Shown: positions 4,650 through 49,909, numbered from the stretch's first letter. The stretch is 64,000 nucleotides of DNA from Botryllus schlosseri (GCA_051294905.1 CM119372.1:25360001-25424000), one strand, 5' to 3'. Made by a program: numbers and translations. The notes: generated by a model from the letters alone, not told the origin.

Positions 4650-6537
4650 AGAAGTTCAAGGTTAAAGACCAGGATTGATGTTCAAAAAGATGGATGAAAT
4701 TGTGGAGTACTTGCTTTGAAGGTTTGTGATGCGTTCACGTATTGAGATTTGAGAAAATTGATTTGCAATCTACTTTCATGTAATAGGCCGTCGAACTCTA
4801 CCCGATGCAAACCTGGATTTTGATCATTCTCGACGAGCTTGCGAAAGCTACCGCCAGCAGTTTGGTCAAATCTTACATGATGCGACGGGTATGTTAGTCA
4901 ATGTTGGATTAAAACCACTTCAAATACGTAGTATGTTTTGCATGCAGATGAATAAGAATTGGGAGATTATTGCATTGAATGCAGTGGTCCAAACCCAATA
5001 AAAAAAAACATGAAATGGGTAGGGGAGATGTGGTACCGATGAGACAGTGGGACCGAAAATACTTGAAAAATTATCTGAGATAATCCTATGATTACGGTAC
5101 GCGAATTTGTCTACAAATGCATGCTGGCAGAATCTTTCACACTAACAAACCAGCCGTTATTTTTAATGTGAAGTGTAGGGCTTGTATCAGGGTATATAAT
5201 GCCACATCTTTTTTAATTCAATATCATCCTCGAGTTGACTATTTTCAATTCAATTACCATATTTATAGGGTGGGGGTCTATGGTACCATAACCAAATCAA
5301 GCAAAATGTTTGAACTCAACTAATCACTTAACAACAGAAACACGCCTACACATATAGAGGCTGCAAATCATAGTTTTCTGTGGTGCTTTATCGCTATAAC
5401 GAGGTAATTGAAAGTCAAAATGTCGATTTACGGGTAATATGTATGTGCCAATAATTTTGTTGTTTTGGGCGTAAATCGAAACGTGATTTTACTCCAACAT
5501 TTGAGTTGATATAATCAAACAATCTATTTTATTCTCGAAGGTGGTCCCAGGTCCCATGGTTGTGTCACTTGTGTGTCTTAGGACCTACCGAGTGGGGACC
5601 AATGATGCGTTCGAGCAACAAATTTTGAACGTTCATGAATATTTTTTGGAAAAGTGGATATTCATGTAAATGTCCAAGATACGTAGAGCTTGGATCAAAG
5701 TGTTGAGCCAGCAAAAGATATATTCTAGGCTGAAGATTTGAGGGCCAGAGATCATTTTGCAATTTTTGATCCATCGCAGGGTTGTAACTAAGTCACAAGG
5801 CTGCGAGTCACAAGTCAATCTCACTTTTATAGTTTTGACTCGAGTCAAGTCGAGTCATTTTCAATTTATCGCCGAGTCAAGTCCGAGTCCAAGTCATCGA
5901 GCAGAGGTTCGAGTCCGAGTCATGGTGTTATGACTCGAGTCTGAGTCAAAAGTCATTGTGTTGACTGCTCACTTTCCAGTTAAGGTCATGTTAAACCCAC
6001 TTTTATAACTCTATTTGATGATATCGAATGGTTTGCATTTATATTATACTAATTTTCCTCACATTTAACCGTTTCTGGTCGCATTTTCAAGTACCAGTAC
6101 TAATAGACAAAATCCCAATAAGGTGGTTACTTTACTGTTCTTCGAAATTACAATGAAATGTCGGTCTTTGCCGTCTGAGTCTCGAGTCATATGACTTGGT
6201 TCGAGTCATGAGCAATGACTCGAGTCCAAGTCGAGTCAATACGCAGATTGACTCGAGTCGAGTCAATACGCAGATTGACTCGAGTCGAGTCATTTCCGTA
6301 TTTTAAGAAAATGACTCGAGTCAAGTCGAGTCATCAAAAAATCGTGACTCGAGTCGAGTCATTACAACCACATCTTTCCTATGCAAACTTACGAGATTAC
6401 ATTTGTTAGGTATATTGATTCTAACTTGTTTCCAGGATGCCTGTGACGGCTGTGGTCGATGGACGCACAAGCACTGTTGCCCGGGACAGCAGATACCTGA
6501 TCCTGATTTTTATTGCATGCTATGTACCCAGATGTAA
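4650..6537 (+). pseudogene. Decayed 3' exons of a transposon gene: Ulp1/C48 SUMO-protease C-terminus plus PHD finger (copy 1)
   Basis: Exons ending 4721 (RIDVQKDG*NCGVLALK), 4787-4888, 4948-5018 (YCIECSGP...KW) and 6436-6537 (DACDGCGRWTHKHCC...FYCMLCTQM*), with GT/AG borders. C4HC3 PHD pattern is complete across the last two exons. Stops and frameshifts present. Confidence 0.75.
5022..6379. mobile_element. TA-flanked TIR element (Tc1/mariner-type) inserted at the splice donor of the PHD exon; contains a GACTCGAGTC-rich element from 5777
   Basis: Ends ggggagatgtggt / accacatctttcc with TA on both sides. The empty site tgggtatg matches the homologous donor at 58087. Confidence 0.65.
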
Positions 6538-6549
6538 ATTCTGATGTTG

Positions 6550-6860
6550 ATATATTTATTAGGGACATTTTACTGTGGTTTCGTTGCGTATTTACTAATG
6601 ACTTTTACTGTGGTTTCGTTGCTTGTTTCATAATGATTTTTACGGTGGTTTCATTGCTTATATCTCGGTCACTTTTAGTATGGTTCCACTGCTGATTTCT
6701 CAATGATGTTTGCTGTGGTTCCATTGCTTATTTTTCTGTGACTTCTACTGTGGTTCCACTGCTGATTTCTTTGTGACTTTTACTGTGGTTTTGTTGCTTG
6801 TTTCTTGATAATTTTTACTGTGGTATTCGTTGCATATTTCTTATTGTGGTTTCATTACAT
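6550..6860. repeat. ~35-bp degenerate minisatellite (acttttactgtggtttcgttgc...)
   Basis: About 9 tandem units visible just after the PHD stop codon, inside transposon copy 1. Confidence 0.8.
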
Positions 6861-8319
6861 ACTGTATCTACAGACTTGGGTCTGAAATTCATTGCGAGTG
6901 TACAAATAAAAGGTTGGGTTCAAGTCACTACCTTCGAGTCACGAGTCATTGCACATTTTGACTCACTCGAGTCAAGTCAAGTCATTTTAGCAAAGTGACT
7001 TGAGTCCAGTCAAGTCATACGAAAAAGGTGACTTGAGTCAAGTCATGACTCGAGTCATCCCAACACTGATATGGGGTGGTGACAGGGTTGTAACCAAGTC
7101 AATTTGACTCGAGTCATTTTCAATTCACCACCGAGTCAATTCCGAGAGCACTGAGTTGAGTCCAAGTCATGGTGTTTAATGCTTCCCCATCCAGTTCAGC
7201 TTCCGGTCACTTCTGTGGAACTCTCGGGGGTGATATCGAAGGCCTCGGATAATTCATATGTTCAATTTTCCCACTCTGAACATGTTTATTGTAACAGATA
7301 AAAGGCAGGTTTAGGGCCTATTTTTCATTTATCAGTCCTGATATACAATTCTTGAATAAGCCATAGAATGAGTAAATCCATTTTTAAGAAAATAACTCAG
7401 GTCAGCAAAACAATTGTGAGTCGAGTAAGTAGTATAACGACAGGAGGTGATCAAGTAGGTCTTTTTTGAATCTGAGCATACAATCATTTGGGATTCTGCC
7501 AACGCTTATTATGAAAAAAATGTAACAATATGCAATCTTCGGTATCATATAGTTGCGAGAACTCAATAGTCGCGCCATGAAAGGATTTAGCCTCTGCTCA
7601 GTTTACCGAGACACCAAACGCCGTATAGCTATTAGCTACTCGGCGTCTCATCATACCAGACGCCGTATAGCTACTCGGCGTCTGAACATAGCAGACGCCA
7701 AACGCCGTATAGCTACTCGGCGTTTCACCATATCAGACGCCAAACGCCGTATAGCTACTCGGCGTCTGAACATAACAGACGCCAAACGCCGTATAGATAC
7801 TCGGCGTCTCACTATAGTCTCTATAGTCTCACCATATCAGACGCCAAACGCCGTATAGCTACTTGGCGTCTCGGAAAACCAGACGCCAAACGCCATATAG
7901 ACATTCGGCCGCCGCTCGGCGTTTGGCGTCTGGCGTTTGGCCTCTGAGCGGGTTTAACCCCTACTCACCTATATGGTATATGACCTACTGATCGTGCAGA
8001 CGACGGTGCTCTATAGCTATACCAGTGACGCAGTGAGCTATCTTCTTGCATCTGGTTTGTTCTTCCGATAAACCAATACGAAAACACTGCGACTGGATAA
8101 ATTTTGATGACAACCTGAGCTGACAAACGCTGATAAAACGAACATGAAAATGAAACAGTGGTCTCGGACGGGCAATAAACCCGCAAATCTCTTAGCACAA
8201 TACACATACGCAGCTAACTGTGACCGCCATGCTACAATGAATTTGATTTAAAATTTTCCAAAACTTTAAAACTACACTAGATTCCAATATATCATTGACT
8301 ACTACCCGTTGGGTTATCA

Positions 8320-25983: not shown

Positions 25984-26414
25984 AGGGGCGCTGCGCTCAA
26001 AAAATGACGTGGTCTCAAATTAAAGGGTAAAACGAAAAATAAAATTGGGCCGCAGCCATTTTCTTCAGAACGCCACTGTAATGGAGCTGCAATTTATTGA
26101 AATTTCCACAGGACCTTCACGCTCCAGCAGAGAACGAACTTAAGATAGTTGTCAGCCGATGTTATGAAGGAAATATGTCCAAAGTTCGTTCTCTGCGTGA
26201 CTGCCTTATCGCGTCGAGCAAGTGCGACGATGAAGACATCGCGCCATGTAACGGGTTAAGCAGCCGCGGCAGCTGGAGCGTGAAGGTCCTGTGGAAATTT
26301 CAATAAATTGCAGCTCCATTACGGTGGCGTTCTGAAGAAAATGGCTGCGGCCAAATTTTTTTTTGTTTTTCCGTTCAATTTCAGACCACATCAGTTTTTG
26401 AGCGCAGTGCCCCT
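25984..26414. mobile_element. Palindromic MITE with TTAA TSD (Kolobok-type termini AGGGG...CCCCT)
   Basis: TTAA at 25980-25983 and 26415-26418; ~145-bp near-perfect inverted arms. Confidence 0.85.
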
Positions 26415-26770
26415 TTAAGGCTTTGTAATAAGGATCCAGACCACCCCATACGTAGGTTAAACGTTTCAACTTTGCGACATATGAGGGTAGAACCCTGGTT
26501 CGGCCTGTTTGAAACGTTGAAACCTCGCCTACGCATTTATCAAGAGATGTTCACTCCCGTAATGCCATCGTGGGAGTCGGCCGTGGGGGAATCTGAGATA
26601 ATCATAATTTTGGGACATGAAAATATTGAAATCCCAGACGTCATTTCTGTCGCAAGAATTTTCAAGATAAAGGAGAATGACTGCGGCTATAGTATCCGTA
26701 ACAAAGTTTTAAATCAATATAAATATTTTTTTCAGCTATTTTTACGATCATATATAGACGATCCTTCAAT

Positions 26771-29700
26771 ATGGCGACTGCTAGGATTGCCATGTTCGCA
26801 TTAGTTTTACTGATGGCGGGAACAGTCGAAATGACACGACTAGAACGTAAGTATTCGTTTTCACGCCCTATTACCTTATAAATCAGGGGCGGGCAACATA
26901 CGACCCGCGGGCCGGATCCGGCTCGCGAAGGGATTTTGTCCGGCCCGCGGACAGTTTTCCGTCATACATGATAATGTGGCCCGCAGCCCCAGTCTGCCGA
27001 GATTCCTCACTACTTGCTTACTTCGTCAAATTTCAGTGACTGTATTTTATTATATGTGCGTATCCGCAGGGTGCGAGAGCGGAGCTTACGCGTAAGTTCG
27101 TCGAAGCGAGAAGACTTGCATTATCGGCATTTACGATGTACTCAACCCTAATGTCGTTTGTGGTAATCATGGTGTTTGTCGACTGCAATGATCATTTACA
27201 CCAAGCTGATATATCATATTTTTGAATCCGTAACTGCCGACTTGTAGCACGGCACACTTCCATAGGCTTTCGTAAGACACCGCTTATGTCAGGGGTCGCC
27301 AACTCAAAATGAGTCGCGGGCCACTTTTCAAATTTCGTGGAGGACGCGGGCCGCATGAATTCAATATCGAGATTAATTAGGCCACACAGTTGAACAAGGA
27401 CGCTATCTCGTCCCCTACTCAACCCTAATAAATTGATATCTTGGTAAATTTGGGGTACCGGGCTTATCGAACGCCTTGAAATCTTAATTAAGGATTGCAC
27501 TGTGTTGTTCGTTGATCAGCTGGAAGCAGACACAACGGCGCCTGTATGACAATGCTATTCTCAAATCCACATTGTATCGTCATTATCCGCGAGAAATGGC
27601 TTTGAAGTGCCATTGCTGTCGTTAAAGTACATTCATTAAATACGATATATTCCTTGTATACGTGGATAAATGGGCGAATAATGTATCGATTCAGGTATCC
27701 GGCCCGCCAAGTACTTAATTTTCCTATATCCCGCCCGCCGACTGGAGAAGTTGCCCGCCCCTGTTATATATGATAGCTGCGTACCAGAGATGAGCATGGA
27801 TTAGGATTAGGTTTTGAAAAAACAGGATTTGTGAAATTTTGTCGGATTTGGATTGGATTTGGATTAGACATTTTTTTCAGAACGGATTAGGATTTGGATT
27901 GGATTTACCTATTTTCTGGGAGATTAAAATGTCGTGTGGCGAATGAGAGAGAGAGAGAGAGAGAGAGAGTCTTTATTTTCATCGAACCAAAATACATAAC
28001 AAACGGCAGTGATGGTGGTACAGAAAATATGCGTGCACAGTATTCGGTATTAGATAGGAATGATCGATAAGACCGTGAATGTCATCTAGTCTGATCACAC
28101 CAGCATCAAACAGGTACACTTGACTCAGAACAGTCTGGCTGTAAAAAAAATGTTTAGTTAGGAAAGGAAAATAGAAAAAAATTAAACAATGGTAGCAAAT
28201 GATCAATGAAGCAATGTCTGGGCGAGGTAGGGCAACAGTGTTAGTGTAACGACAAGAGGTGATCAAGTAGGGCTTTTTTGAATCTATTATAAGGCAATTC
28301 ACGGATATGTGATGGTAATGCATTCCAGATGATAGGTCCCGAGTAGTCGATAGATCTCTTAGTTAGGTTGCTATTGGGTTGGGGTAAGTAGACGTTTCCT
28401 TTAGACGAAGATCTCGTGTAATGGGAATGGACATGTTTAGCAGGTATGAAAAAGTCATCAAACACAGGAGGGAGACTATTGGAAAAATATTTGTGAACAA
28501 CTTTTGATACTTCGAAGCGATACAGTTCATCAACTCGCAAAATTCGATGCTTACGGTAGTAAGGCGATAAATTGGTACGTAAAGGTACAGATGAGATCAG
28601 CCGTATCGCACGGTTTTGCAGGGTTCGAACTCTGCACAAAAATGTTGTACATGCATTTCCCCATACTACGATTCCATATTGCAGATGCGAGTGGAAAAGA
28701 GAGAAGTAGATGGTTCGTAGTACTGATCTGGAAACCAAAGATTGGAGACGGGTCATTATTCCCACACACCGAGCTAGTTTTGATATTGTGCATTCAATAT
28801 GCTGCTTCCAAGACAATGCGACAAACTTTATTCAGATCAGTTATTAATGTACTTATGGTTACTAAGTTTTCTTGAATCAAGTGAATCGTTGGTTGTGAAT
28901 GCAAATTTTCGAATCCCTCCATTGCATAAATTAGTATTTTTTCTGAATTTCCAGTTGGAATCGGATTAGGATTGGACATGGACTTGAATATGAAAAAGTT
29001 ATGGATTGGGATTAGGATTTGGATTTGAAGGTTCGGATTTGGATTGGATTGGGACATAGAAATTTCAAATCCGCTCATCTCTGCTGCGTACTAGCACAAT
29101 TTCGGATTATTTCAGTATTTCGGCTCTTAATCATGGTCGTGCAAATTTTGGTGCACATTAAATTGGGAAAGCGCATATATGCATGTGCATGTGCACTGAA
29201 TTCTACGATGGGTTTTCAGATGGCTAGGCTACGTCTTATATTCTTACATGAGCACTGAGCAGCCATATATTGCATAACCTTACATCTCCCACATGACCAT
29301 TGTATTGTATAGTGTATACACACAACCTACGGCTTTTCATCGTGACCACTGAATAACTCTCATTGGCCTTCGTGCTGTAACTGCAGCTGGATCTTCGTTC
29401 CATTTCCAATATGACGGCGGTGACTACTGGGTTCGAATCGATTGGTGGGGAACTGTATCATTTGCCGACGCGCAATCCGATTGTAAAACGAAGTACTCAG
29501 CAGAGGTGTATCAAGACGTAAATGCCGCTGAATTGGCGGAGGTTCAGTCTCAAGTCGAACAAAAGATTCCAGGAGACTGGAACGAAGTCATGCTATGGAC
29601 AGACGATGATGGTGTAAGTATCATACAAGTACTCATACGAAACATATGTTATAATGACCGAAGAAATGACGACGTGGATCGTCATTAATTCCGATATTGA

Positions 29701-32700
29701 TGACTATGGCTCGCAATATTCTTCGTATAGACTGCCGAAACAAAAGATTTATTGGTGATATGGAGACCGGGTACTGGTGGACCAAACAGGATTGAGAGCA
29801 AGCCTGTCAGCTACAAGGCTCACGGATACGTTTGCTACAAGCCCCGTAATTATCATTTTTATTTTTTAAAAATTATTGGCATGTTCGATGCTCGTGAAAC
29901 AATGCTCAGTGAGCTGTTGATATTTTGAATCAATAGAGGGTATGACGTGTCGTAAGATAGTACTGTCAGTAAACAAATTTTGCAAATTAGGTGAGGTATT
30001 CTTTAGTTGCAACATGCTGCTCAGAACACAGCGTGGCAGATCCGGAATTACCGTATTCACATCAGGGCAGCTCCGAAACGGCTATTCGGTGAAGTTGCAT
30101 AAAATTAATTCATTTCTCTTGTGGTGGTTTCCAAAGTGGGCGCCAGCGTCCCCTGGGGGCATTAGTGACCTCAACAGGAGCGCTAGCTATTAACTGGGAG
30201 AATGAGAGTGCGGAGCAAGAGGGGTGTTATGAACCATAGAAATCAGCGTGGTTAATCGAATAATATATATTTAAAAGTGTATTCTAATAAGAGGTATATG
30301 AATATGTGCAGAGGTGGTCTAAGTACTGTTGTCTTGATTTGTTTTCGCAAATGTCATGGTGACAGAAATACATAAGCATAGGAATCCCGTAACAGACATT
30401 TTCACAAGACTTTGACATGTCGTACAATCATTATATTCCTGCTCATTGTCCGGTGTCCTTGAATATACGCTACAGTCTGTTCATTATATCGTTCCCAGCC
30501 ATCGGCCACACTTACGAATTCCAGTATTCCGGAAATGACTATTGGGTTTGGATTGATTGGTGGGGGACGGTCAGCTTTGCAGAAGCTCAAACGCAATGTT
30601 CAAGTCATTCTGCCGAACTTGTAAGCATTTTCGACGGGGCTCAGGAGGCTGAAATAGAGAGACAAGTAGAATACAGGATTCCAACCGACTGGTCTGAAGT
30701 GATGCTGTGGACCAAAGACAGCCAGGTATTATAAATAATGTTGTTCTGGGGCGAAAAAATAGATTCCCATTGCATAGCAATATCGAAATGATACGCTGTG
30801 CAGGCTAGAGTAACCTTGCCAAACATTGAAAGATTCCGTAACGTTGCTTCGATTGCTTGTCACAGAGCACAGGAACGAATGTCATGCTTGTTGTATGGAG
30901 AGAAGGAACAGGGGGTCCGAATAGAAAAGAGAATCACTCGCCGAGTTACAAAGGCCACGGATACGTGTGTATCAAAAGGAATAACGAACGTAAGCCAACT
31001 CGCTAATATATGGAAGGTGCATATGAAATTGCTAATCGAAGAAGCTTGTTTGTGAGATGTTGGCCTATGTCTGCGAGCCTTGCGTTTCAGCGCCAGTTAA
31101 CTATGTTATGATCTGAACCCAGATCTGTATCCATTATCACTTTCTGTAGGTGATAAAGTTTGATCGATAACTTCAATGGATGTGGGTGATCGCATCGCCC
31201 AGGTGATCTTTTTCAGCGTGGGGGATTCATATTTCTCAATACTTTTCAGCTGGGAATTCCTACCAGTTCGATTTCGGCGGCGTTCGTTATTGGGTTATGA
31301 TTGATTGGTGGGGCACGACCAGTTATGGCGACGCCCAGAATGCCTGCAGCACCGAACACGACGCTGAAGTAGCCACCGCTCAAAATGCTGAGGTTTACGG
31401 CGAATTGCGCAAGCAAATCGAGTATCGCATTCCTCTCACATGGCGCGAAGTCATGCTTTGGACTGGTGACAGCAACGTATGTGCAATGTCCATTAAAATT
31501 CACCCGAAGAAAACTTATTTTAGATAGTGTTTATAGATTGCAGTCTATAGTCAGCATAAAGTTGATCGACTCGGAAATAATGCTACAAAAATTAACGCAT
31601 GTTGCGATGCCTTAGCCAGTGTTGGGATGACTCGAGTCATGACTTGACTCGAGTCAGACTCGAGTCAACTTTTTCGTATGACTTGACTTGACTCGAGTCA
31701 CTTTGCAAAAATGACTTGACTTGACTTGACTCGGCGCTTAAGAAATGTGGATTGACTCGTGACTCGGAGCAAAATTTACGAGTCAATTTCAAGTCATTAA
31801 GTATAAGGTGTCGATTAAATCACCCTATCTTATGTATGTTTGGGTTGTTCGCGATACGCCTGTGTCACTTATGAGAGAAACCAGTCATTGATTGATTGAA
31901 GGTTTAACTGATCCTCCATTGTTACATCACAAATAAATTGACCGCAAACGAAACGATCACAGCTTACGTTGTCGTAGTAGCAATAGATTCATCAAGTAAA
32001 AACGTATCTTTGTTTCTTAGACGGCTCAGATGCTTACATTGCGCACTGATCACATTCACCAACACTCTTGTATGATTTAATAAACCTAAGGAATATATAG
32101 GTTATGCGTTTATATTCTCACGGATGTGTAGATGGGTAGTGAATTGTAACATATCAATTTGTTCAACTTCCCGAGGCTTCGTATTCGATCCTCTATGTTG
32201 GCCGATAATAACATACTGTAGCATGTAGCTAGTTACTCACGTATTTTATTAGCAGTTCTTCGAGTGCGTGAGCGATACATCACCTTTTTGCATGTATATT
32301 CATTTTTATTTCATTATTTGATTCAAGCTTAATGGCCAATTATTCTGTCCATTCATTCAGTTAGTAAAATGTAATGACTTTGCATCATCTATCATACTTC
32401 GAAAATTCAATTTAACTTGAATTATGACTTGACTCGTGACTTGACTTGACTTGACTCGACTTGACTCGAGTCACCTCCAAAAAACGAGTGACTTGACTTG
32501 ACTCGAGTCACCTTTGAAAATCGATTGACTTGACTTGACTCGAGTCAAAATGTGCAATGACTCGAGATGACTCGTGACTCGAAGGTAGTGACTTGATCCC
32601 AACACTGCCCTTAGCTAATGTCGGTGGTTCGTAAGTTTGCAGATATTCTTGCTAAATTTTGTTTATGTGCGTTTACAGGTCGCTAACACCCATGTGATGC

Positions 32701-32798
32701 TTGTGGTTTCGAGAGACGGGACAGATGGACCGAATCGCAAAGAAGACCACCCGGACGCTTACAAAGGACATGGATACATTTGTCAGAAGCAGATATAA
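26771..32798 (+). CDS. Secreted protein with three tandem compact C-type-lectin-like domains (~371 aa, 7 exons)
   Basis: Exons 26771-26846 (signal peptide MATARIAMFALVLLMAGTVEM), 29387-29613, 29731-29845, 30499-30725, 30866-30989, 31250-31476 and 32679-32798. All borders are GT-AG with compatible phases (1,0,1,0,1,0); 1116 nt open to TAA. Each domain reads YWVxIDWWGTxS(F/Y)xxAQxxC...EVMLWT...GPNR...YKxHGY(V/I)CxK. Confidence 0.88.
26884..27763. mobile_element. hAT MITE in intron 1 of the lectin-like gene; contains a SINE fragment and another hAT end
   Basis: TIR caggggcgggcaac / gttgcccgcccctg; TSD ttataaat/ttatatat. Confidence 0.85.
27785..29083. mobile_element. hAT MITE (GGATT subterminal repeats) carrying a LINE insertion
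   Basis: TIR cagagatgagc / gctcatctctg; exact TSD ctgcgtac. Confidence 0.9.
27945..28816 (-). mobile_element. 5'-truncated LINE (CR1/L2 group, Crack/Daphne-like): ORF2 C-terminus, 3' UTR and (TC)n tail
   Basis: ORF 28241-28816 SWKQHI...IYFSLFHSHLQYGIVVWG...LQNRAIR...YSGPIIWNALP is typical of the post-RT region. Ends aaaataaaga(ctct)n. A small related fragment lies at ~7440-7540. Confidence 0.88.
31617..32607. mobile_element. hAT MITE with GACTT/GACTCGAGTC subterminal arrays (lectin gene intron 6)
   Basis: TIR cagtgttgggat / atcccaacactg; TSD gccttagc/cccttagc. Fragments at ~6910-7067 and ~59150-59283. Confidence 0.9.
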
Positions 32799-33519
32799 TT
32801 CGGGTGAGACAAACCTGAGCTGTTCCGAAAAATTGCCCATCTCAGTTTTCCAAGTCGCATTGAAAGCATTTCGGTTATAGTACTGAAATGAATTCTGTAT
32901 GCTTACATTTCATGTACTATTTGCTCATGCCGGCGAACTATATAGGATAGCCTACGTATAAGCAAAGCAGATGTCTTGCGATATCCGCGATGTGGACGGA
33001 ACCAAAGCGGTATATAAGATATTTATCGGATGCTTTGTCCACAGTGTATATAACACATCGACTCGAACTATTTTTCGTTTTCTTCCGTATGACGTTATAA
33101 ATCCCGCCACTCGAATACTCGACTGGAAAAAGAACAACAGATTTTCCTTGCTAAAATATGTCGACAAGTTTTGATTTGCTGCCGACCTTCATTTGCTATA
33201 ATAATGTATACCACAAATTTTCAGGCCGTGCTCCACGTGACGAGAAAGGCGATGGATCTTTCGACAGGATATGCTCATGAATGTCGGCATCTATATGCTC
33301 ATTGCTCATACTCAGATTGGGAATACTTTAATCACTTCACTTTATTGACATCGTGTGGTGCAATTCACTTGAACGGATTTCGCTTTTGAAAATACATTAT
33401 AGCATGCTTGACATCCGTTCGACTTTGTATTTCGCGTTTGAGTTTTCAGTATAGTGCGATAGAACTCGACGACGGCTCGCCCAAATGGGCAACTGCGGCT
33501 GTAAATCAACCATCGTCAG

Positions 33520-35538: not shown

Positions 35539-38500
35539 TCAACGTTTCATTATTCGATCAAAGTTCGATATTACTTGCTCAGTGCATTGTATCGCGGATT
35601 CAGTCAAGGAAACCTTTTCGTCGCACTCGTCGTCTTTGGTAATTCTGTCTTGTATATCGTCATAGCGAGAAGCGTGTTGTTCGGGTATAGATTCGGGATG
35701 CGGGTGTCTACGAAGAGAGCTTCGTCGAGAATGGGTTTTTCCTAGCGACCCCGCGCGGCTCGATCTGCCCAAACTTCCGCTCGAAAAATTAACATCACTT
35801 GATTGGTAGTTCTGTGGTGTTGCACAAGCAGACTGGGGTCTTTGTGTGCTATTTAGTCTTCCGTGATATTCGGTGTTATTGCGGACGGTGAATGATTGTC
35901 TACGGGAGTCTGTTACGTCAGTTCTGTAGTACAAATCTGGGCGACTGGTCTCCGGGAAATAGCTTTGTGAAGAAAAGTCGTTCGAACGTGAATCAGGGCG
36001 ATACCAATCACTACCTGATCCCTGTCGAGAATGCGAAGGGGTGCCGTGGTACGATAACTGGCTAGATCTCCTTGTGAGAGATGGATATTCCGAAAAATTG
36101 GCTGGATTTCGACAGGTGTGTAAAGGTGGGTTGGCCAGATCTAGCATCACTCGAAGAGGTTGTGTTTCGCTTATTGTCTCCAGACTGCGCGGGTCGTTGC
36201 TAATGGAATCGAGATAGTAACTTTGTGATAATCCCCTCTCTCCATTAGCGTATGCGTAGTTGACCACATCGCTGTTGCTATCGTTCCGGTATGTGTCCCG
36301 GCTGTAACCTGTGAAATGTTGCGTCTCAGTTACAGACGAAAGTTAACATTTATATAGCGATATACCAACAGATGATGTGTCAAGACACAGGTTGGAGAAA
36401 TAATATGAAATATGTCGACTTCTTTTTACTAATATCAGTAGGATTTACAGCGGTTTACGTGCATTGTAATTTCCTGCTGTTGATATTTTGAATCCATACA
36501 GTGTATTGTATTGTATACCCCACCATGCTCTAGCACAAAAGGAAGAACTGCTTATACCTGGATCTGACGCAGCTGGCATCCAGCATTCATCAGAGTGGCC
36601 GTAATTTCGACATGCAGGTGTACATCGCTCACCCATATTGGCTGGGTATCTGTACTGCATTGCGCGTGTTGGCGGATGTGAAATATGTGACTTATCTGAA
36701 AAATATAATTTATTCGTAATTCCCTAAAATATATATATCACAATAGGTTGTCACATACCTCTGTCACCTATGCAACTGTCTGTGTCCTTGTCACTGTCAC
36801 CTCTTCCACTATCGCCATCTCCGGTGGGTATCTCAGGAGTTTTTGATCTTGCAGTTTCGTTCAAGTCCTGTTATTAACACAATATGTATTTGATCAGCTG
36901 CCAATGCATTACATTCACATTCGATTACTCACCTCTCTTTGTCTACTGAATGTCGTGAATTTCAGTTCATTCTCGCTGGTTTGTGCTGCCATGGAGGCCT
37001 TGTCGGATAGCGACACACAATCCGTCCGTCTGTCCGCGCGCGTTCGTTTCAAGGAAGCGGGCAACGTATTGACAGATTCAGCCTTATCGGAAGTACGGAT
37101 ATTGATTGTACTCGCGCACGACAGTCCGCCTCTTGATCCGATTTCTTCTGTGCGAAAGTTATACACCTGGAACTCCTGCAAATCACGTAATAGAGTGAGG
37201 CGATGTTATTAGAGTTTAAGTAAAAATGCATTGAAGACCTTTCAGTTCATCTTTTTATTTGAGTACATGGAAAGATGTGGTTACAGTTGGTATCATTGGT
37301 GCTCAAGAAGAAGTACTAACTTAAATTTTGCTCAATTACAGGCAGAAGCAGGGATTTCGAAGAAATGTCAAAACTACGTCAATTGGAAGTAAAAAATGAA
37401 GATTTGAAAAGTTCTCAAGTATGCAGTTACAAAAACGTAGATTGGGTGGAGACGTCGCATAATTTCGATGGCCGATCGAAGGAGGTTACCTTCGAAATTG
37501 CAGGATCCATCTAACGCCAGTACAAATCGATGCAACTTTCCAAAATAACTTTATAGTTACCTCGATACAGTGGCTATTCCACCAGTTCGTTATGACAATT
37601 TCACTGACAAACGTGATGTAAATATATATACTTTATGTGTACAAGTTTTAACTTTACAAAATCCAAAGTCTAAAAAGTGAGTAGTCTTGCGTAAACCAAT
37701 GTCAAGTAGAACTGGATGCAGTAAAAATACAAAACCACTTGAATAAGTACTGCAAGTCGGGAAATCTGGTTGAATACTTAGAAAAAGTAGAGGTATGATG
37801 TATACTTCATCACTGACCCCCCTCTGAGCCGGGAGGTGATGACTATGTCATGTCCGTTCAAATGTTAACATCACCTAAAGGTTTAATTTTAGTGGCCTGC
37901 ATAAACTGGACTGCGATGCATGGAACTATACACGTGCATGATGACTGTATTTGCGACTGGCTGCGTTCGTATGGATAGCCCGGCGGCAAACAGCGGTTTA
38001 ACCGAAAGACGACTCACTCATCGTACCAAGTCAAGAGTCCTAACAATGACACGTGAAGCCTTAAAGTTACATCTTTTTGTCTTAGCGATAATATAGGATG
38101 AGAATGACTCTCATAATGCGCTTGCGCACATAAACATGCTTACCTTTTTCTCTCTCCGACATTTCAGTACAATGCACACGAGTACTACGAGGAGTATTAG
38201 GGTTATTGACGCCAGGCTCGACAGTATGATCGCGGTTATTTTCGTGTTTTGCTCTTCGTCGTCTTCGTGATAATTTGGTATCACTTCCGACAAGGGCAAG
38301 TCAACCACTTTGACGCTGATTGGCATCGTAGATTGCAACGGAGGAGAGCCTTTATCGCTCGCCTGTGATCACGAGAGAAGGTATAAATTCGGAGTTCAGC
38401 GTTATATCTTTAATCGGCTAATTCAATGCACGCTATACGATTACTAAAATTATTATATGTAATAGGAGACGTGCAATTTTTAGTTCGCAAGTATCCTCAG

Positions 38501-41500: not shown

Positions 41501-44500
41501 TATTGCTATCAGTATATGTAATATGTATATAACCTATCATATAACGTAAATTAGAATACTCGCTTATGATAACGGCATTTTAACTGCACTCTATGATGCA
41601 GTCGAATATGCCACAGACAACTCATCTACTCACTTTTTTGGAACTCCTCTATCGCACGCTTTGATTTTTATCAGATACTGATTTTCCAATTCTCGATCCA
41701 AATGGCGGTTGGTTGAGATCAAATTGTCCTTGAGGACAAAATAATTCGTTCTGTCCGTGCTCTTACTTGCGGTACTGGACTCTGATTCGTTCTCGTTGGA
41801 TAGTACTCGAATCGAATCGATCATGAGAATCACTTGGCCTGCTTGGCCGTGATCCGCGTCCGACGCGGTGACGTGTGCCAGGTACGTGCCCAGCTCGGCA
41901 TTTTCAGAAACGCAAGCTGCAAGCAAAATAATATACATTTTACATATACAAATTTTCAGTTAAGAAATTCTAGGACGGGTGATTGAATTTCAATTAATAT
42001 TTTTGGAAAGTAACCGGATGATTTCTACGAAATCATAACGTTCGATGTAGGCGGGTGTAGAAAACATATGGCGAGTATACAGCGATGAGATGCTGCCATC
42101 AAGATGACATTTCATCGATGCGCGGTCAAATTAAATAGTACCCAGCCTATAGGCACTAACTCTGTTGTATCTTGTAAGATAATGCATGCAGATGCATATA
42201 TTGAGGAACGTTCCTCAAATAGGCAGATAGGCCTACGTACAAGTATCGACAGTCATCATAAATGATTTTGATTTTAGTATCACGTTTGAAGAGAGCTGCC
42301 TAAATTGCAATATCTGATTTCCATTTTCTTGACGAGTGAGAGACTGTGGGTTAGGGCTGTTCAAAAATAACCTTTTTCCTGAATTTTGCTGATTACTTGA
42401 TTAAATCGTCAGGTTGCCTTAAAAAACGACGCACACCAAATTTGAATTCATTCCAACCAATATTCGCGGATTTCGTAGAGTTTGAAAATTCACTACGAAA
42501 TCCGCGAATATTGGTTGGAATGAATTCAAATTTGGTGTGCGTCGTTTTTTAAGGCAACCTAACGATTTAATCAAGTAATCAGCAAGATTCAAGAATAAAG
42601 GTTATTTTTGAACAGCCCTACTGTGGGTGTTCGAAATAGGGATGGTGTGAACCTCTAAAAGGTTCAGGTTCGTGTGAACGCGAACCGTTTTGAAAGGTTC
42701 TGTGTGAACGCGAACGTGAACCTCATGACGTCACGTGACGTCATATTACTAATTCCAACCCTTCATTTCAGTGAACGAGTGAAGTGATAGCCTGTAATGT
42801 ACACGATACCCAACGACGATCGGGCCACATTATGCCACAATGCTGAAGTACAATGAAGTGGTTTTAAACGTCGCCAAATGTATTAACTGGGCGCATCAAA
42901 TGATATAATAATCCCATAAAATCAATATCTTTCGTCGCTTCGACGAGGACTTGCAAGGGAATATAAGCTTACACCTTAACGGTCTAGGCCAGACCGGGCG
43001 AATGTATTCGGCCTCTGAGTATTGCTACGTTGATATTGAGCAGAGTGTAAAACGGGTTTCTATACTTGCTACTAATATTACCCCATTAACAAGTTTTACA
43101 GCAGTAGCCAACACCCCAATCGCACGAATTTGGTTTTTATGATACATTAAACATATAAAGTCAAGATTGACTCCGTACGCCTGCTAGATTTTTTACATCA
43201 GGCAACGATATCAATTTCATTGATTGGCTGAATAAGCATCATTCGATGACTACCTACATGTAGTGTATTTCGCTCTTGATGTGTGATTGCGAGTCAAGCT
43301 TACAGCAGAGAGTCACTAAATATTCACTACGGAAAGCTGGATATTTCGAGCAAACTTTTGTAACAAAGCAAGTAAAATCTTTGGGATTGGCAAGGTGCAA
43401 GCTAGTTTAGTGTTGATTTTTTTATGCTGCAAAGCGCCGTGCATCGAGTGGCCCGCAGTTGAAATGCAATAAATTTCAACCAAAAATATTATAATGAAGT
43501 GAAAATTGTAATATATGAAAAAGGTTCACAGTGCAGAACCTACCAAGGTTCGTTTGTGAACGTGAACCTCTAAATTTATGAGGTTCACATGCAGAACGCG
43601 AACGTGAACCTCAAGTCCATACCATCCCTAGTTCGAATATAGTGACAGTGCTAAATGCTCTACCAGTATCGCTTCCGCCATATCCTGTATTGAACGGTTG
43701 AAGTTAACCATCTATAGATACTGGTTGTTTTGTCACTTGGAAAATTCGTTATATGTTGCGGTGATGGTAATGTCAACACCATCTCTAACGGAATGTACCG
43801 ATAGCAGCGGCATTAACATTAGATCACTCAAGTAATCGAATAATCTCTTGTTTATGACTGCCACAGCTAATCGATACTCCCGAATGTCCGCTATCGCGTG
43901 GAGTCTTTGATCAAGACGCGTTGTTGATATTTGTAACACTGAAACAGTGTGTGTAATACACTCGTGCTATTATACTCCATCCGCGATTGGCGGGAGTAGT
44001 CGAATCATAATCAATGGCAGCACCGTGAACAGCAAATGTCAAAATATACTCGGAATGTTGAGTAAACCCAGTGTAGAATGAATGGGAAATACCTTATTTC
44101 TTAGTACACATGAATATCCGTCTTGGTAATGAACGACCATGGCTACATATAAATACACCATTCTTGTAAAATGTTTTGGAGTTACACAATCAAAATCCTT
44201 GGCGATACAGCAATATTTTATCGATTCCATTTGGACGTATTCTATGTGGATTTCGTTACAATTGAGTCAATGCTGCTTCAAGTGCAATGAGCGCAAACAC
44301 GTATAGGAGGAATGATACACGGGTTACCGAGTGCTGAGTGGTAACTAATTTATATGTCTGGCTGAGAATGAGCTGAGATCATCATCAGCAATGTTACGAA
44401 GCTATTGATCCATAATTTGCAGTCGTCGTTATCGCAATCATATTTCATCGGGGACATCAATTCAAAATACCATACGAAATAAGATGTGAGTAGTGAAGCT

Positions 44501-47500
44501 TGTGGGTAAAGCTTTAGAGTGTTCCGTACAATTTTATCATCTTTAAAAGTTCACCAACCTGCATCGTTTGGACCTCGGATGATAACATTGACATCGATCT
44601 GAGGGGCATTATCGTTGACGTCTGTGATATGTATCATGAGAACGGTCCTTCCGATTTTCTTTCCCGTAAGTCCAGGCGAATCTTCAGCAGCAAGAATTAT
44701 TTTCACCCTTGAAATTACAGCGATGATAACTCAGCCGACCAATACATCCGTATTTATTCAATATGTTACTTTTTCTTTTCCTCTCTGTCTGGTGAGCGTC
44801 TTAGCTTCACTTCCCCGGACCTACGATCGACAGACACGAATCTGCGCGCAGATATCGAATTCCCGGTGCTTGGAACAAAGTACCGTACTTCACCGAAGAG
44901 TCCTTTGTCCAGATCGCTAGCGTGGACGGTCGCTATCACATGTCCAACTGGGAGATTTTCTCTAAGTCTCAAATCATAAACCTGAAAGGGAGTCATGCAG
45001 ATTTTGCGAATACACCAATCCTACAAGAATATCATACCGATTCATCAAAAACAGGGGCGTTGTCGTTAACGTCGATGACGTTGATGCGAAGAGATAACTG
45101 AGCGGAACGTTTGATGGGAGATCCGCCATCCGTCGCTATCAGATCCACATCAAATTGCGGGGTGTTTTCGTAGTCTGAAATAGTGACTCGTGAATGGCCT
45201 GTCCACATTTGCCGACCAGGTAACACGCAGAAGCAGATATAGTTTAAGATATCCCTCGCTAACATGGCGTTCCAGTCAGAAAATTATAGCGATTGGTCGA
45301 ATTGGCTGTTCCACTGCGTAACATATGCTACATGTTACCAGACAACTAGAAAATTTCCAGCTTTTGCAGGTCAGACGCACGTTGGTGGTTCAATTATCGA
45401 ATCAGACAGAATTGAATTCTAAAGGCAAGATTTTTCATCGCCCTATAGAAAGGACAAACGCCTCAAACTGGCCACGTTATAATGCACATTATACGCCATG
45501 ACAAGCACATTATACGCACATTAGAAATTAGGCTACAATCTGTGCGGTTGGTAACATTGTTCGCACCAGTCATGATAAGTACCTAGCAACAAGCAGCAAT
45601 CTCGATGTCTTCGATACAGTCTAGGTGTAGAAGCAATTCCAAGCACATCAAAGTCAATATGGGCATTTGTGCTATCGCAATTATTATGCTTGACTTGCTG
45701 TAAATGACCGTGTAATTGTTGTCGCCGTTTCCGTCTAATAGGGTTACCAGAAACTACCGCACTTCGAACGTAGAAGCGTAAATTTTTCTGCGGGTTGGCG
45801 ACGAAGTCATTCAGACAAAGCGCAATTTGTTCCAATTTACATCAATCAAATGGACAAACCTAATGGCGACTGAAGACTCAAATGCAGATGTTGAGCCCCT
45901 GTGTCATCTTCATATTCGTTCACCACAAAATGATCATTTCTTGTCATGGTGTAGTGAATTACCGCATTTTGATCTGAGAATGCAATAGAATACAATGAGA
46001 AAAACGTGTTTTGTTAATATTGAAACTTTTACTTACTCATATCCTCGTCGGTAGCCATGAACTGGTCAATATTGATCGTTGACTGCACGGGCGTATCCTC
46101 GCTAATGTTCAACTGGAAGATTCCACTTCGTGGTGCTGTTGGAAATTTCGGGGAATGATCGTTCACGTCGGTGACAATCAGCTCAAAATTTTGTAGACGG
46201 AAATGATTTTGTGGCAGCATCGCAGTCTGAAAGACAACATTCTGATAAAGTTTTGCGCGTTTGCTCCTAATGGGTTGAAATATGAAGGCTAGCTTAAGCT
46301 GGTAAATCCATTGAGATTTTTGTATTGACAAGACAAAAACACGGCTGTGAACAAGCAGTTACCCCGAAGGACTTATGAGCTAAATGATTCCAACTTCCAG
46401 GGTATGCGAAGCCAGCAGCCAAAAGTATCATCAATGGAAACATGCGTACACTGTACCGGCCAGCTATAGGCCTAGGCCCTAGCTAGAACAAAATAATTTT
46501 CCTGGTTTACATTATAGGTATGCTTTGGATTGCTCCAGGTTAACTCAGGCACTTGTGAGCAGAAAGTATCATCGATCCAATGGTAGATTCAATCATTAAT
46601 ATTAGATCTTAGAAAGTCAGATATCAGCAATGATCGATTCGGGCTGAAGGTGCATGATGCCTCTACAATAGTCCTTCCAATGAAAATAATATATCTCTCC
46701 CACGGGAAATAATGATGAGCGGAATCAATGAAATAATAATATAGAACTTCACCATAAGCATATTAATCAACACTTTGACTTTTTAATATCGATCGTCAAA
46801 CTGAGTCCAAAATTAGATCCGCGGATGCTCGACAGCAGCAGTTTTTTTGACATTTAACATGCGGGCACGATTCAGAAATATTGGTTACAATTTGGACATC
46901 ACAACTTGGTTCATTTTGATGGGAATTTGCATTGCCTTACGAGGTTGCCTCTCATTATCACCGAAAAGAAAACAAAGTTTAACATTAAAGAATTTCTGTA
47001 TCCATGGCTTGTCAGCGGGATATGGCGAAGTTGCGACTTTATTGTGAGTCTTGAACACGCAATAGGTTGCTATTGTGTACAGATCGAGTTAGGGGAATCT
47101 CCTATACTCCAGTCAGGAAATTGAACGTATCCGACACTTCATTAACAACGATTACCAGTTTGGATTTACGGACTCACACATACATATTGTACATTGTACA
47201 ATGTACATCGTACGCATACATGAGGGACTTTATAAGCAAAACCTATGGAGCACGTGACTTTCTCAAGTCTCTCAAGTTCGTCATCGTACTACGAGTTGCA
47301 AGAATGCTCAATTGCTCATGCGTCGCCTACGTTACCGTAGTCCCCAATTCATGTTTATTAGCATTATTATGAACTAGTCACTCGGTTTTATTCCCCATCA
47401 TAATAAAGTTTACCTTATTATCGAACGCAAACGGTGTGATAATAAACTGATTGTTGTATATATGCAATACAGAAAATGATTAATAGTAGGTGGTGCAGGT

Positions 47501-47894
47501 GCAAGCACGGAACATAATTTATATCTGGAAGTCAGTATTTGCATACCTGTACCGTGATTGTACATTCCAGCTCAAAATCCTCACCGCATTCAGTCTCTCT
47601 GTCTGCCGGCTCATTGACAGATATAACTCCAGAAAGGCGGTCAATTTTCAGCCATTTCCTACCGGGTATGACCACTTTATTTCCGATTTTCATTCGTTGT
47701 CCCAGTATTTCAAAGTACCGCCCAGGCAAGTCATTGAACCTCACATTAAACATCTGAGGTAAATTAGCCACTACGGTGCCTGGTTCCTGCTCTTCTTGGA
47801 ATTCCATTCGATGCTTTCTAGGGTTGAGTTGGCAATTTGCTTCCATTATCACAATGAGACTCGTAATAGCGAATAGACGGCGTCCCAGCAGCAT
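35539..47894 (-). CDS. Non-clustered delta-2-type protocadherin (~1190 aa, 16 coding exons)
   Basis: Exons 47894-47547, 46226-46037, 45973-45860, 45174-45038, 44981-44770, 44707-44559, 41916-41634, 41251-41074, 40188-40048, 39978-39808, 39383-39213, 38362-38144, 37175-36933, 36867-36759, 36695-36558 and 36308-35539; GT-AG, in frame, 3573 nt. Signal peptide, six cadherin repeats (DxNDxxP, DRE/DYE/DWE), TM helix, YNFR, CM1 DSGRGDSD, CM2 CTPACRNYGHSDECWMP; no RRVTF CM3. Confidence 0.93.
42352..42620. mobile_element. Foldback MITE, near-perfect 269-bp palindrome, in a protocadherin intron
   Basis: TIR tagggctgttcaaaaataac; exact 8-bp TSD ctgtgggt. Confidence 0.92.
42637..43630 (+). mobile_element. 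hAT-type element (GTGAAC subterminal repeats), complete copy
   Basis: TIR tagggatggt / accatcccta; TSD gttcgaaa/gttcgaat. Confidence 0.9.
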
Positions 47895-49909
47895 TATAGT
47901 CGTATATGTTCCAATATTTTCACTCTAGCTGATGTAGTCCTCACACACTCAATTCTTGTCGCTGAGTATTCGTCGTCTGTGTTCCTCAGTCTCGTATCAT
48001 TTGATGCGAAATCTTATTGACTCGATTATTCCGGTTCATAAAATCTAGAGTCACTAATGCTGTAACAGAGTAAGAACTATACATCAGTCATTCGTGAATA
48101 ACCCCGTCGCTTTTGATCATCTACTAAATACCATTTCCGTGACAGACTGCTCAATAGATATTACACGGTTGGATTCGTTTCGGTGCTAATAGCGATTATA
48201 AATCCACTTAGTGTATTGATTTCTGTATAATTTTTTCACGGGTTGAGCGTGGAAAGTGAAATAAAACTTTACGGCGCAATTGTAGTTCTAAAGGCCGGCT
48301 ACACCGTGAAATTGAATTAGCTATTCCGGCTGAGGTCACACATGTTAGAAATGAGCCACGTTTACGCGCGACTACACGATCTCCCTGTACAATAGATGTC
48401 GAATTTATGCATATAACTGACAATACGTGGGCGATTCTAATTTGTTCGCCGATCTCTGAATCATTGATTTCACGCAGACTTTGACTGTAGAATTTTAGCG
48501 ACCCCACTCTTGCTTGAAGAAACTTTCTACCAGCTACCATAGCATGCTTCCTTTATCGTTAAAAGGTATCCCCAGATGGCAGCGCGTGCGTAAGTCTTAT
48601 GAAAAATCCGAAATAGGTAACTTTCCTTCACCGCCACACTCCACATGATGGGCGACAAATTAAAGGAGTATAGAATGGAACTCGCATTCATTATGAGCTG
48701 CGATGCTGGCGATTTTACTACGACTCTATTTAGTAGACTTTATGCTATTATTGCTGAACCTGGGGATGGGATTTACTCATTCTGATAAAGTTGTGAGGAG
48801 GCGAAACCAAAGCTAGGTTTTGGTGGTAATCGATACAGTTGTTTGTCGCAGAAGCACTTCTTATTCCCCGCCATGTTTTGCAGTAACGTATATGCAGTCT
48901 GTTTACAAATGTCGACGCATACATAAAGAGCTGGTGTATCGAGCCGTATAATTACGCATTTGTCAACGCGAGACAATGTGACGACACTAGTACACTACTT
49001 GTCAAGATAACAACCCCATAAGAGAATTCAGATAGAAGATTATAATCCCCTGCGTACGTATTTATAAATATGTTTGAACCAACTTCCGGAATCACACCAA
49101 CAATTAATTTTATATTTTATGCCATCGTCAAATCAATATAAGCACCGGATTCAAATGACCTTAATCAACCAGGCGCCGAAGATATTCCGACGCGTATTGT
49201 TCCGAACTCTAAAGACGATGAACATGGTATTATATTTGAGCATTCATAGTGTATGTAATCCCAGCTCTCCGTCTAATGCTCCTATATTGCGACGACGGCT
49301 TCAGAAATCTCCGACGGATTGAAGTCGCAAATCTACGGGCTTATCTTTCTTCTATGACTCGCCTTGCGAATAATCGGATGGAAGCGAGTGCTCACGGGGG
49401 GTTTCGTGAGACGATAACGGTTGAAATGAAGTGTTGTAACTGCACTGCACTGCATAAGTCAGTATGTGGTATGTGATGCATTGTACATTGCCCAATGCCC
49501 ATTGGCAAAATGTCAGCGGAATTGTCTTACTAGATTGAGCGAAATATAGGCTGGTAGCTGTTTAGCAAGAAAGTAGTAAGCGACTATGTATTTGGATACA
49601 CCCAACAGAACAACACGAATACACTTATCATACCACATCAACCATCAGGGGCAAGAATTTGAAGTGACCTTTTGACCGCGAATACGACCGTTACGCGATG
49701 TTCATTATGCTTATTACTGAGTGGTGAGTATGCGCCCAACGACTGGAACGCCATCATTTCCTGTTGCGACGGGATGGAGATCCTAATTAGAAGCGGCCAG
49801 CGCAGAAAGATAAGTGGGTTTGAAGTTGCAGTCGGTGATTGCAGCAGGACAGATGTGTCCGTTTCAGACGCAGTTTGCATCCGCAAGATATACTCAAAGA
49901 TTAACTTAC

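What the first reader, a model, noticed from the sequence alone, without database searches (positions are those of the whole stretch)
26771..32798. Unannotated secreted triple-domain protein with atypical, compact C-type-lectin-like repeats
Seen: a signal peptide plus three ~115-aa repeats, each encoded by the same 227-nt + ~120-nt exon pair with phase 1-0-1 symmetry, indicating tandem exon-pair duplication. Each repeat has only two Cys (helix-1 AQxxC and terminal YVCxK). There is no WND motif or inner disulfide, but there are invariant IDWWGT, EVMLWT, GPNR and YKxHGY motifs. Known: canonical sugar-binding CTLDs have four Cys and EPN/QPD plus WND. Inference: a lineage-specific, probably Ca-independent trivalent binder with a Trp-rich surface, possibly for tunic/cellulose, mucus or microbes.
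Basis: partly seen in the sequence, partly recalled or inferred. Interest (0 to 1): 0.7.

Follow-up and report, generated by a model that had tools for sequence, protein, structure and literature searches.

The report
Secreted protein, three shortened lectin domains
This is a real, spliced and expressed animal gene for a probably secreted protein made of three copies of a C-type-lectin-derived domain that lacks the usual calcium and sugar site and one of two disulfides, so it may be an independently shortened lectin fold whose binding partner is still unknown.

Summary
The gene is real. Seven exons give a 371-aa frame. RNA shows 5 of 6 coding introns directly, plus an unreported 3'UTR intron. 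Three ~114-aa repeats are 50-58% identical, each with two Cys, and synonymous sites are saturated.

A model of the 75-aa first exon matches only C-type lectin-like domains (50 of 50 listed rows, best Z 6.5). The second exon supplies 38-41 residues where canonical domains have about 57-64. The long loop, EPN/QPD, WND and the inner disulfide are absent. Best reading: a secreted, trivalent, compact CTLD that binds without the canonical calcium site. The ligand is untested; a neutral polysaccharide is my guess (~40%).

No whole-domain model could be made, so the second half is placed by spacing only. Only three unnamed relatives turned up among 1.84 billion representatives. RNA shows expressed paralogs, and the 'invariant' motifs vary among relatives. 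Reviews list compact CTLDs only as Link modules and bacterial domains; this fails the Link cysteine test. Verdict: new variant of a known kind.

The parts
26726..26735 (+). Polypyrimidine tract + AG just upstream of the ATG: a splice-acceptor-like site (upstream 5'UTR exon or trans-spliced leader, undecided)
   Evidence: Sequence; contigs of X1 and X5 match only from 26734, the X1 contig with 9 further letters (table 8)
26771..26846 (+). Coding exon 1: signal-peptide-like N-terminus, phase-1 donor
   Evidence: Highest 11-residue hydropathy 2.92 from residue 6, no 19-residue window above 1.2 elsewhere; joint 26846>29387/29389 in X1, X5 and 23 X23 reads
29387..29613 (+). Repeat 1, exon A (227 nt): CTLD beta0-beta1-alpha1-alpha2-beta2 part, with C1
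   Evidence: aligned with the repeat-2 exon whose model matches CTLDs
29731..29845 (+). Repeat 1, exon B (115 nt): inferred beta3-beta4-beta5, with C4
   Evidence: donor joint 29845>30499 in 21 X23 reads, X1 and X5; acceptor joint only indirect
30499..30725 (+). Repeat 2, exon A (227 nt)
   Evidence: Model pLDDT 74; 50 of 50 listed structural matches are CTLDs; Lectin_C E 0.043, below cut-off
30866..30989 (+). Repeat 2, exon B (124 nt)
   Evidence: Joints 30725>30866 (23 X23 reads) and 30989>31250 (38 X23 reads), also X1 and X5; low-confidence hairpin model
31250..31476 (+). Repeat 3, exon A (227 nt)
   Evidence: joint 31476>32679 in 42 X23 and 8 X21 reads, X1 and X5
32679..32803 (+). Repeat 3, exon B, stop at 32796-32798 and 5 nt of 3'UTR
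32804..33224 (+).
   Evidence: Joint in 14 X23 reads, 111 X21 reads, X1 and X5; ends read
33225..33300 (+). Start of the last, non-coding exon (3' end not determined; the laid stretch ended at 33300)
   Evidence: Depth 82 in one direction and 0 in the other in X21
28241..28831 (-). Repeat-like open frame in intron 1, by eye the C-terminal part of a non-LTR retroelement polymerase; not part of the protein
   Evidence: no Pfam hit at E 0.001; reads with many loose ends; label from recall

Best explanation
A secreted, acidic, ~40 kDa protein of three tandem compact C-type-lectin-like domains, made by two old duplications of a phase 1-0-1 exon pair. Each domain keeps the CTLD lower lobe, beta2 (VMLW in place of WIGL) and the alpha1-beta5 disulfide. 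It has lost most of the long loop and both inner cysteines, so the canonical Ca2+ site 2 cannot form. It most likely works as a multivalent binder or cross-linker outside the cell: three weak sites formed by conserved loops (DWWG after beta1, IPxxW before beta2, GPN, and YxxHG before beta5) add up by avidity on a repetitive ligand, as Link modules do without the long loop. My most likely ligand class is a neutral polysaccharide or microbial glycan (chitin, cellulose, glucan; about 40%). Shown: gene structure, expression, cysteine pattern, absence of motifs, CTLD-like model of the first 75 residues. Inferred: secretion, placement of the last 38-41 residues, the disulfide, the binding loops and the ligand.
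For: Splicing and expression. Saturated synonymous sites with pN 0.29-0.36 between repeats. Exon A model: strands 2-9 and 12-20, helices 26-35 and 46-57. 50 of 50 listed VIA matches are CTLDs, best Z 6.5, rmsd 2.2 over 67 residues. Foldseek's top rows include NK-type CTLDs, none significant. ESM features 0.91 to Lectin_C clusters, with all ten best family hits in one family or clan. In 4 single-domain chains picked from the 50 rows, 57-64 residues follow the aligned end, against 38-41 here. Only 12 residues separate VMLW from the next hydrophobic strand, and the recalled C3 position holds S/S/A. The long loop is about 30 residues and carries the calcium sites (PMC6468738, PMC7618208 passages). 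Link_TSG6 binds its polysaccharide by ring stacking in a groove that includes the beta1-alpha1 loop (PMC3937638 passages).
Against: No whole-domain model exists. Best Z 6.5 is below the level the tool calls clear (8), and no Foldseek match reached E 0.001. The exon B model is poor (pLDDT 54.5). Pfam Lectin_C stays below cut-off. The best ESM hit is an unnamed cluster, and the shared-feature counts (156-164) are under the 170 typical of true family members. The proposed binding residues vary in relatives: P0006 has DWL for DWW, and one X1 contig, read by eye, has Glu for the Lys of YKxHG. The protein is acidic, unlike a Link-type polyanion binder. No tissue or ligand data.
Confidence: 0.55

Rival explanations
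1. Same compact CTLD fold, but the ligand is a protein: a matrix, egg-coat, adhesive or cell-surface partner, bound Ca-independently as by NK-type CTLDs or invasin/intimin. The protein would be an extracellular linker or modulator, not a lectin.
For: CTLDs that lack the calcium motifs often bind proteins (PMC2792708, PMC7618208 passages). Foldseek's best rows are Ly49 and NKp80, though not significant. Acidic repeats could bind a basic partner. Paralogs vary at the proposed site.
Against: Three similar soluble domains with no anchor or stalk suit a repetitive ligand. Invariant aromatic residues in loops suit ring stacking (inference).
Confidence: 0.3
2. Different register in exon B: VVWREG and GGPNR are remnants of the long loop (WxWxDG and GEPN), and it is the beta3-beta4 hairpin with both inner cysteines that was deleted. 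The domain would be a more radically rebuilt CTLD.
For: Motif likeness by eye; one deletion would remove both inner Cys at once; exon B alone gives no structural match and no ESM hit.
Against: beta3-beta4 belongs to the core sheet (PMC7618208). The exon B model, though weak, pairs VMLVV with residues 20-24 as a hairpin. S/S/A sit at the recalled C3 position.
Confidence: 0.2
3. A divergent Link module (hyaluronan-binding superfamily) rather than an independent shortening.
For: Compact size and tandem repeats; Link modules arose by deletion of the long loop (PMC9630629).
Against: The inner disulfide that shapes the Link groove (Cys47-Cys68 in TSG-6) is absent. The long alpha2 aligns with canonical CTLDs. 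The terminal aromatic sits two residues before the last Cys, as I recall for canonical CTLDs. The protein is acidic.
Confidence: 0.07
4. A bacterial compact C-type-lectin-fold domain acquired by horizontal transfer and later given introns.
For: Bacterial CTLDs such as invasin and intimin are the other described compact type. An earlier scan note describes compact CTL-fold domains in a gut bacterium (e1-1244172, not checked).
Against: The structural matches listed are animal CTLDs. The phase-0 intron lies five codons after the WIGL-equivalent, and a 'downstream of WIGL' intron is described for animal CTLD genes (PMC514892; exact position not compared). The three true relatives end at the same donor position.
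Confidence: 0.04
5. A cation- or mineral-binding or purely structural secreted protein, like the eggshell and other biomineral CTLDs.
For: pI 4.8. The top structural row is struthiocalcin-1 and ovocleidin-17 is also listed.
Against: Rows within 1 Z unit are tied, so the top rank means little. A shared fold shows no function.
Confidence: 0.1

Closest known systems
Canonical C-type lectin-like domains (Pfam PF00059), e.g. struthiocalcin-1 4uxm, PLA2R CTLD7 6jli, clam SPL-2 6a7s (titled Ca2+-independent), langerin 5g6u
   Same: beta0-beta1-alpha1-alpha2-beta2 arrangement over 60-67 residues at about 2 A; Cys in alpha1 and near the end; terminal Y-[VI]-C; tandem secreted domains
   Different: About 20 residues shorter after beta2; no EPN/QPD, WND or WIGL; 2 Cys instead of 4 or more; below the Pfam cut-off
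Link modules (TSG-6, CD44, lecticans): the described animal compact CTLDs
   Same: Long loop missing; tandem arrangement in some members; proposed use of loop aromatics without Ca site 2
   Different: No inner disulfide; canonical-type long alpha2; acidic rather than basic; no sequence match seen
Bacterial compact CTLDs (invasin, intimin)
   Same: Long loop absent or replaced (PMC6468738)
   Different: Spliced animal gene with a signal-peptide-like start and three repeats; no prokaryotic relative found
Described tunicate C-type lectins (collectins/MBL, CD94-like receptors, BSCLT, TC14)
   Same: CTLD ancestry; probably the same animal group (from earlier scan notes, not tested here)
   Different: Architecture differs: no collagen stalk, Ig domain or membrane anchor. 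Seen in a review (PMC5465252 passages) and a search listing (TC14); their sequences were not compared directly

Membership tests
CTLD superfamily (fold) | beta1-alpha1-alpha2-beta2 N-terminal arrangement | tested here: met
   Exon A model; 50 of 50 listed VIA rows are CTLDs, Z 3.9-6.5; moderate Z
CTLD superfamily (fold) | beta3-beta4-beta5 completing the upper sheet, and beta1/beta5 pairing | tested here: inconclusive
   Exon B alone: pLDDT 54.5, one hairpin, no match; no whole-domain model
CTLD superfamily (fold) | C1-C4 cysteine pair (alpha1 and beta5) | tested here: met
   One Cys in alpha1 and one terminal Cys in all 3 repeats; the bond itself is inferred
Canonical CTLD | C2-C3 inner disulfide | tested here: not met
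   Only 2 Cys per repeat
Canonical CTLD | [quoted passage not shown] | tested here: not met
   38-41 residues after exon A against 57-64 in 4 picked chains; 12 residues from VMLW to the next strand. Which segment was lost depends on the register
Canonical CTLD | Pfam Lectin_C at gathering score | tested here: inconclusive
   Best 15 bits against 22.6, but only single exons were scanned
Ca2+-dependent C-type lectins (CRDs) | EPN/QPD plus WND forming Ca site 2 | tested here: not met
   None in any repeat; the recalled WND position reads ESK/ENH/EDH
Ca2+-dependent C-type lectins (CRDs) | Ca-dependent sugar binding | not testable with these tools
   Needs recombinant protein
Link module | Long loop absent | tested here: met
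   By length
Link module | Two disulfides, including the inner one at the hyaluronan groove | tested here: not met
   2 Cys per repeat; TSG-6 Cys47-Cys68 in PMC3937638
Link module | Sequence or structure match to Link (Pfam, PDB) | tested here: inconclusive
   No Link family for single exons at E up to 10; only 50 of 128 rows with Z >= 2 were shown
Link module | Hyaluronan or glycosaminoglycan binding | not testable with these tools
   Net charge -6 to -8 per repeat makes it less likely

The most novel reading that the evidence does not exclude
An animal CTLD lineage that became compact independently of Link modules, lost the inner disulfide as well, and evolved a Ca-independent aromatic groove for a neutral structural polysaccharide (tunicate cellulose or chitin). 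It would act as a trivalent cross-linker or sensor: a convergent 'Link-like' solution in the vertebrate sister group, carried by an expressed paralog family that Pfam misses.
Probability: 0.25. Interest if true: 0.72.

Novelty: new variant of a known kind. Interest (0 to 1): 0.5.

Why it matters
The two reviews I read in part (PMC9630629, PMC6468738) name only Link domains and bacterial proteins as compact CTLDs. A one-disulfide compact CTLD in an invertebrate would be a further, independent route to that form. It would show how far the fold can be trimmed and suggest that lectin-derived families are being missed by profile annotation. If it binds cellulose or chitin, it would be a small, EDTA-resistant binding module and a candidate component of tunic, mucus net or gut defence. 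If it only binds an unknown protein, it is one more lineage-specific divergent CTLD, of interest mainly to specialists.

Tried and rejected
No whole genome is held for this window, so paralogs could not be counted. No second copy lies in the window (tblastn).

Sequence searches: longer homologues, none with one exon (6 candidates) or with the 6-row profile (8000 candidates); both are weak negatives. Similar-length search: only the same 3 proteins among 151 candidates. Of the 6 hits, three (P0008-P0010: two bacterial-type repeat proteins and an LCCL-repeat protein, short 24-33-position matches) were dropped as chance. No relative in JGI metagenomes, viral contigs or prokaryotic genomes; these are exact-pattern scans of limited reach. 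PDB by sequence: nothing significant; LOX-1 CTLD at E about 1 and lincosamide resistance proteins at E 0.07, taken as chance. ESM Atlas gave nothing for exon B.

Structure: no Link module among the 50 rows shown, which does not exclude one. The exon B model found no match.

Other: no Rfam match in the window. No listed holder run was on record as RNA; expression rests on the raw RNA runs X23 and X21. An exact look-up of the neighbouring TIP41 protein found nothing, so the taxon was not established by my own test. Paper searches: none of 5 peptide motifs occurs in the full-text library; topic searches listed no description of this protein. The PROSITE pattern text was not retrieved, so the spacing I use is recalled. 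Supplements and subscription papers were not searched and could hold the gene under a model number.

Full report
Observation. I rebuilt the gene from the window. Exons 26771-26846, 29387-29613, 29731-29845, 30499-30725, 30866-30989, 31250-31476 and 32679-32798 have GT..AG at all six introns, with phases 1,0,1,0,1,0, and give an open 371-aa frame. The repeats are 57.5, 50.0 and 54.0% identical over 113-114 aligned positions, far above shuffles (scores 322-360 against at most 53). Synonymous sites between repeats are saturated (pS 0.73-0.85) while pN is 0.29-0.36, so the duplications are old and the protein is under constraint. No other copy lies in the window.

Expression. I laid four of the 24 listed runs on 26300-33300: two raw RNA runs (X23 bulk, X21 single-cell) and two contig sets (X1, X5; RNA status guessed). 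Joints seen: 26846>29387 in X1 (X23, 23 reads, and X5 show 26846>29389 with two letters between, probably an allele); 29845>30499 (21 X23 reads); 30725>30866 (23); 30989>31250 (38); 31476>32679 (42, plus 8 in X21). That is 5 of 6 coding introns. The sixth, 29613>29731, is not among the 15 rows shown (31 hidden). Contigs in X1 and X5 stop matching at exactly 29613 and run on, and 33 X23 reads join a diverged exon-A end to 29739. A further intron, 32804-33224, lies five bases after the stop (14 X23 and 111 X21 reads). X21 reads at the 3' end lie in one direction only, which fits a + strand transcript if the second mate is sense (recalled for such libraries). Of 16 exonic differences among the 40 rows shown (322 hidden), 10 are synonymous and 6 not.

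Family. A profile of the three A exons against 1.84 billion representatives gave 6 hits. Three are real relatives (E 1e-21, 2e-20, 8e-8): unnamed singleton frames from about 1-kb Logan contigs that match up to the same donor position and then run into unrelated sequence. The other three I dropped as short chance matches. P0006 is closest to repeat 3 (55%), and P0005 and P0007 to repeat 2 (55, 49%), so relatives probably share the multi-repeat layout. One search also shows expressed paralogs or very diverged alleles. Read by eye, 74 X23 reads carry a different start of repeat 2 (GQTHQFKYS for GHTYEFQYS), and one X1 contig has SYSERSPTYEG for RKENHSPSYKG. The motifs are therefore invariant within this gene, not across the family. 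Searches for longer or named homologues, and scans of metagenome, viral and prokaryotic contigs, found nothing; these are limited negatives. I did not establish the taxon.

Fold. Exon A of repeat 2, with six sequences, gave pLDDT 74 with a beta hairpin and two helices. Foldseek found nothing at E 0.001, with Ly49I and NKp80 among the first rows. VIA against 48,161 chains gave 128 matches at Z >= 2. All 50 listed are C-type lectin-like domains, best struthiocalcin-1 (Z 6.5, rmsd 2.2, 67 residues), aligned to their N-terminal part. Z is middling, but the uniformity of the list agrees with Pfam Lectin_C at E 0.043 and 0.014 (below cut-off) and with ESM features (one source, lowish feature counts). 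I put CTLD ancestry of this part at about 90%.

What is missing. After the point matched by the end of exon A, four single-domain chains that I picked from the 50 rows (4uxm, 1gz2, 2vuz, 4wqq; length minus last aligned residue, assuming numbering from about 1) have 57-64 residues. Here exon B supplies 38-41. The long loop is about 30 residues and carries the calcium sites (PMC6468738, PMC7618208; passages). In my preferred register VMLW is the WIGL strand, a 12-residue link replaces the long loop, LV(I/V) is beta3 with Leu for C2, E-(S/N/D)-(K/H) stands where WND would, and S/S/A stands eight residues before the last Cys, where I recall C3 (canonical spacing from memory, one search did not retrieve it). 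The exon B model is weak (pLDDT 54.5) but pairs these two segments; it matched nothing. A second register, in which VVWREG...GPN is a long-loop remnant and beta3-beta4 was deleted, is not excluded (about 20%). Either way the canonical Ca site 2 and the inner disulfide are absent. The phase-0 intron five codons after VMLW recalls the 'downstream of WIGL' intron of animal CTLD genes (PMC514892, passages); I did not compare exact positions.

How it may work. A hydrophobic N-terminus and no other membrane-length segment indicate secretion. The mature protein is about 39.6 kDa, pI 4.8, with one N-glycosylation sequon in repeat 2. Three similar domains on short linkers suit avidity for a repetitive ligand. 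The invariant residues outside the expected core lie in four loops: DWWG (beta1-alpha1), IPxxW (alpha2-beta2), GPN, and YKxHG before the last strand. In Link_TSG6, a compact CTLD, the polysaccharide lies in a shallow groove with ring stacking on Tyr and His and contacts from Lys11/Tyr12, Tyr12 being in the beta1-alpha1 loop (PMC3937638, passages). Dectin-1 binds glucan through Trp, His and Tyr without the calcium motifs (PMC7618208). By analogy I favour a Ca-site-2-independent, aromatic site for a neutral polysaccharide or microbial glycan (about 40%), then a protein ligand (about 30%). The acidity argues against hyaluronan-type polyanions and leaves cation binding open. Whether these Trp are exposed was not tested, and all ligand statements are inference.

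Comparison with what is known. It works like a non-canonical CTLD and belongs to the superfamily by its N-terminal fold and C1/C4 pattern, with the C-terminal strands unconfirmed. It is not a canonical or Ca-dependent C-type lectin (no long loop, C2-C3, EPN/QPD or WND). It is not a Link module by the cysteine test. Two reviews give Link domains and bacterial proteins as the compact class, and one says Link domains are found only in vertebrates (PMC9630629, PMC6468738; passages); I recall a Link module being reported in Ciona but did not check. An insect survey found all 22 of its domains canonical (PMC5842395, passages). Passages of a tunicate immunity review (PMC5465252) and a Botrylloides single-cell paper (PMC12212465) describe other lectins and many uncharacterised genes, none matching this layout. 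PMC2792708 was also read in passages. No paper in the library holds any of five motifs. Supplements and subscription journals were not seen.

Verdict. Observation confirmed; interpretation partly supported. This is a new variant of a known kind: a real, expressed, narrowly distributed family of one-disulfide, compact CTLD-derived domains. Divergent CTLDs are common in invertebrates and the function is untested, which limits the score. An independent compact form would still interest lectin specialists and is directly testable. Interest 0.5.

Noticed in passing
window 26726-26735 (+): RNA contigs stop matching at an AG after a T-rich tract 35 bases before the ATG: an acceptor for an upstream exon or a trans-spliced leader. 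The extra letters were not shown.
   Followed up: partly
window 32804-33224 (+): Intron in the 3'UTR beginning 5 bases after the stop codon, well supported by reads.
   Followed up: yes
window 29499-29739 and 30506-30924 (+): Reads and contigs with colinear but diverged coding sequence point to one or more expressed paralogs, or very divergent alleles, with the same exon junctions.
   Followed up: partly
window 778-1650 (-): TIP41/TIPRL-like gene in one uninterrupted frame (Pfam TIP41 E 4.9e-64).
   Followed up: partly
window 41633-47924 (-), possibly with 35542-36342 (-): Intron-rich protocadherin-like gene: Cadherin_2 at 47535-47924, Cadherin at 44769-45020 and 41633-41959. The 267-aa Ser/Arg-rich frame at 35542-36342 may be its cytoplasmic exon (guess). 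149 of the frames of 72 aa or more were scanned, not all.
   Followed up: partly
window 62251-62538 (-): SOCS box exon (E 9.3e-09).
   Followed up: no
window 28241-28831 (-): Fragment that looks like the end of a non-LTR retroelement polymerase inside intron 1 (by eye; no Pfam hit).
   Followed up: no
window 31617-31770 and 32430-32610: Two related arms rich in short GACTT/GACTC units in intron 6, with similar stretches at about 5800-7070 and 59155-59283: probably a small dispersed transposon family.
   Followed up: no
P0006 against window 31252-31476: A database relative is 55% identical to repeat 3 but 35-36% to repeats 1 and 2, suggesting the triplication predates its split from this gene.
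   Followed up: partly
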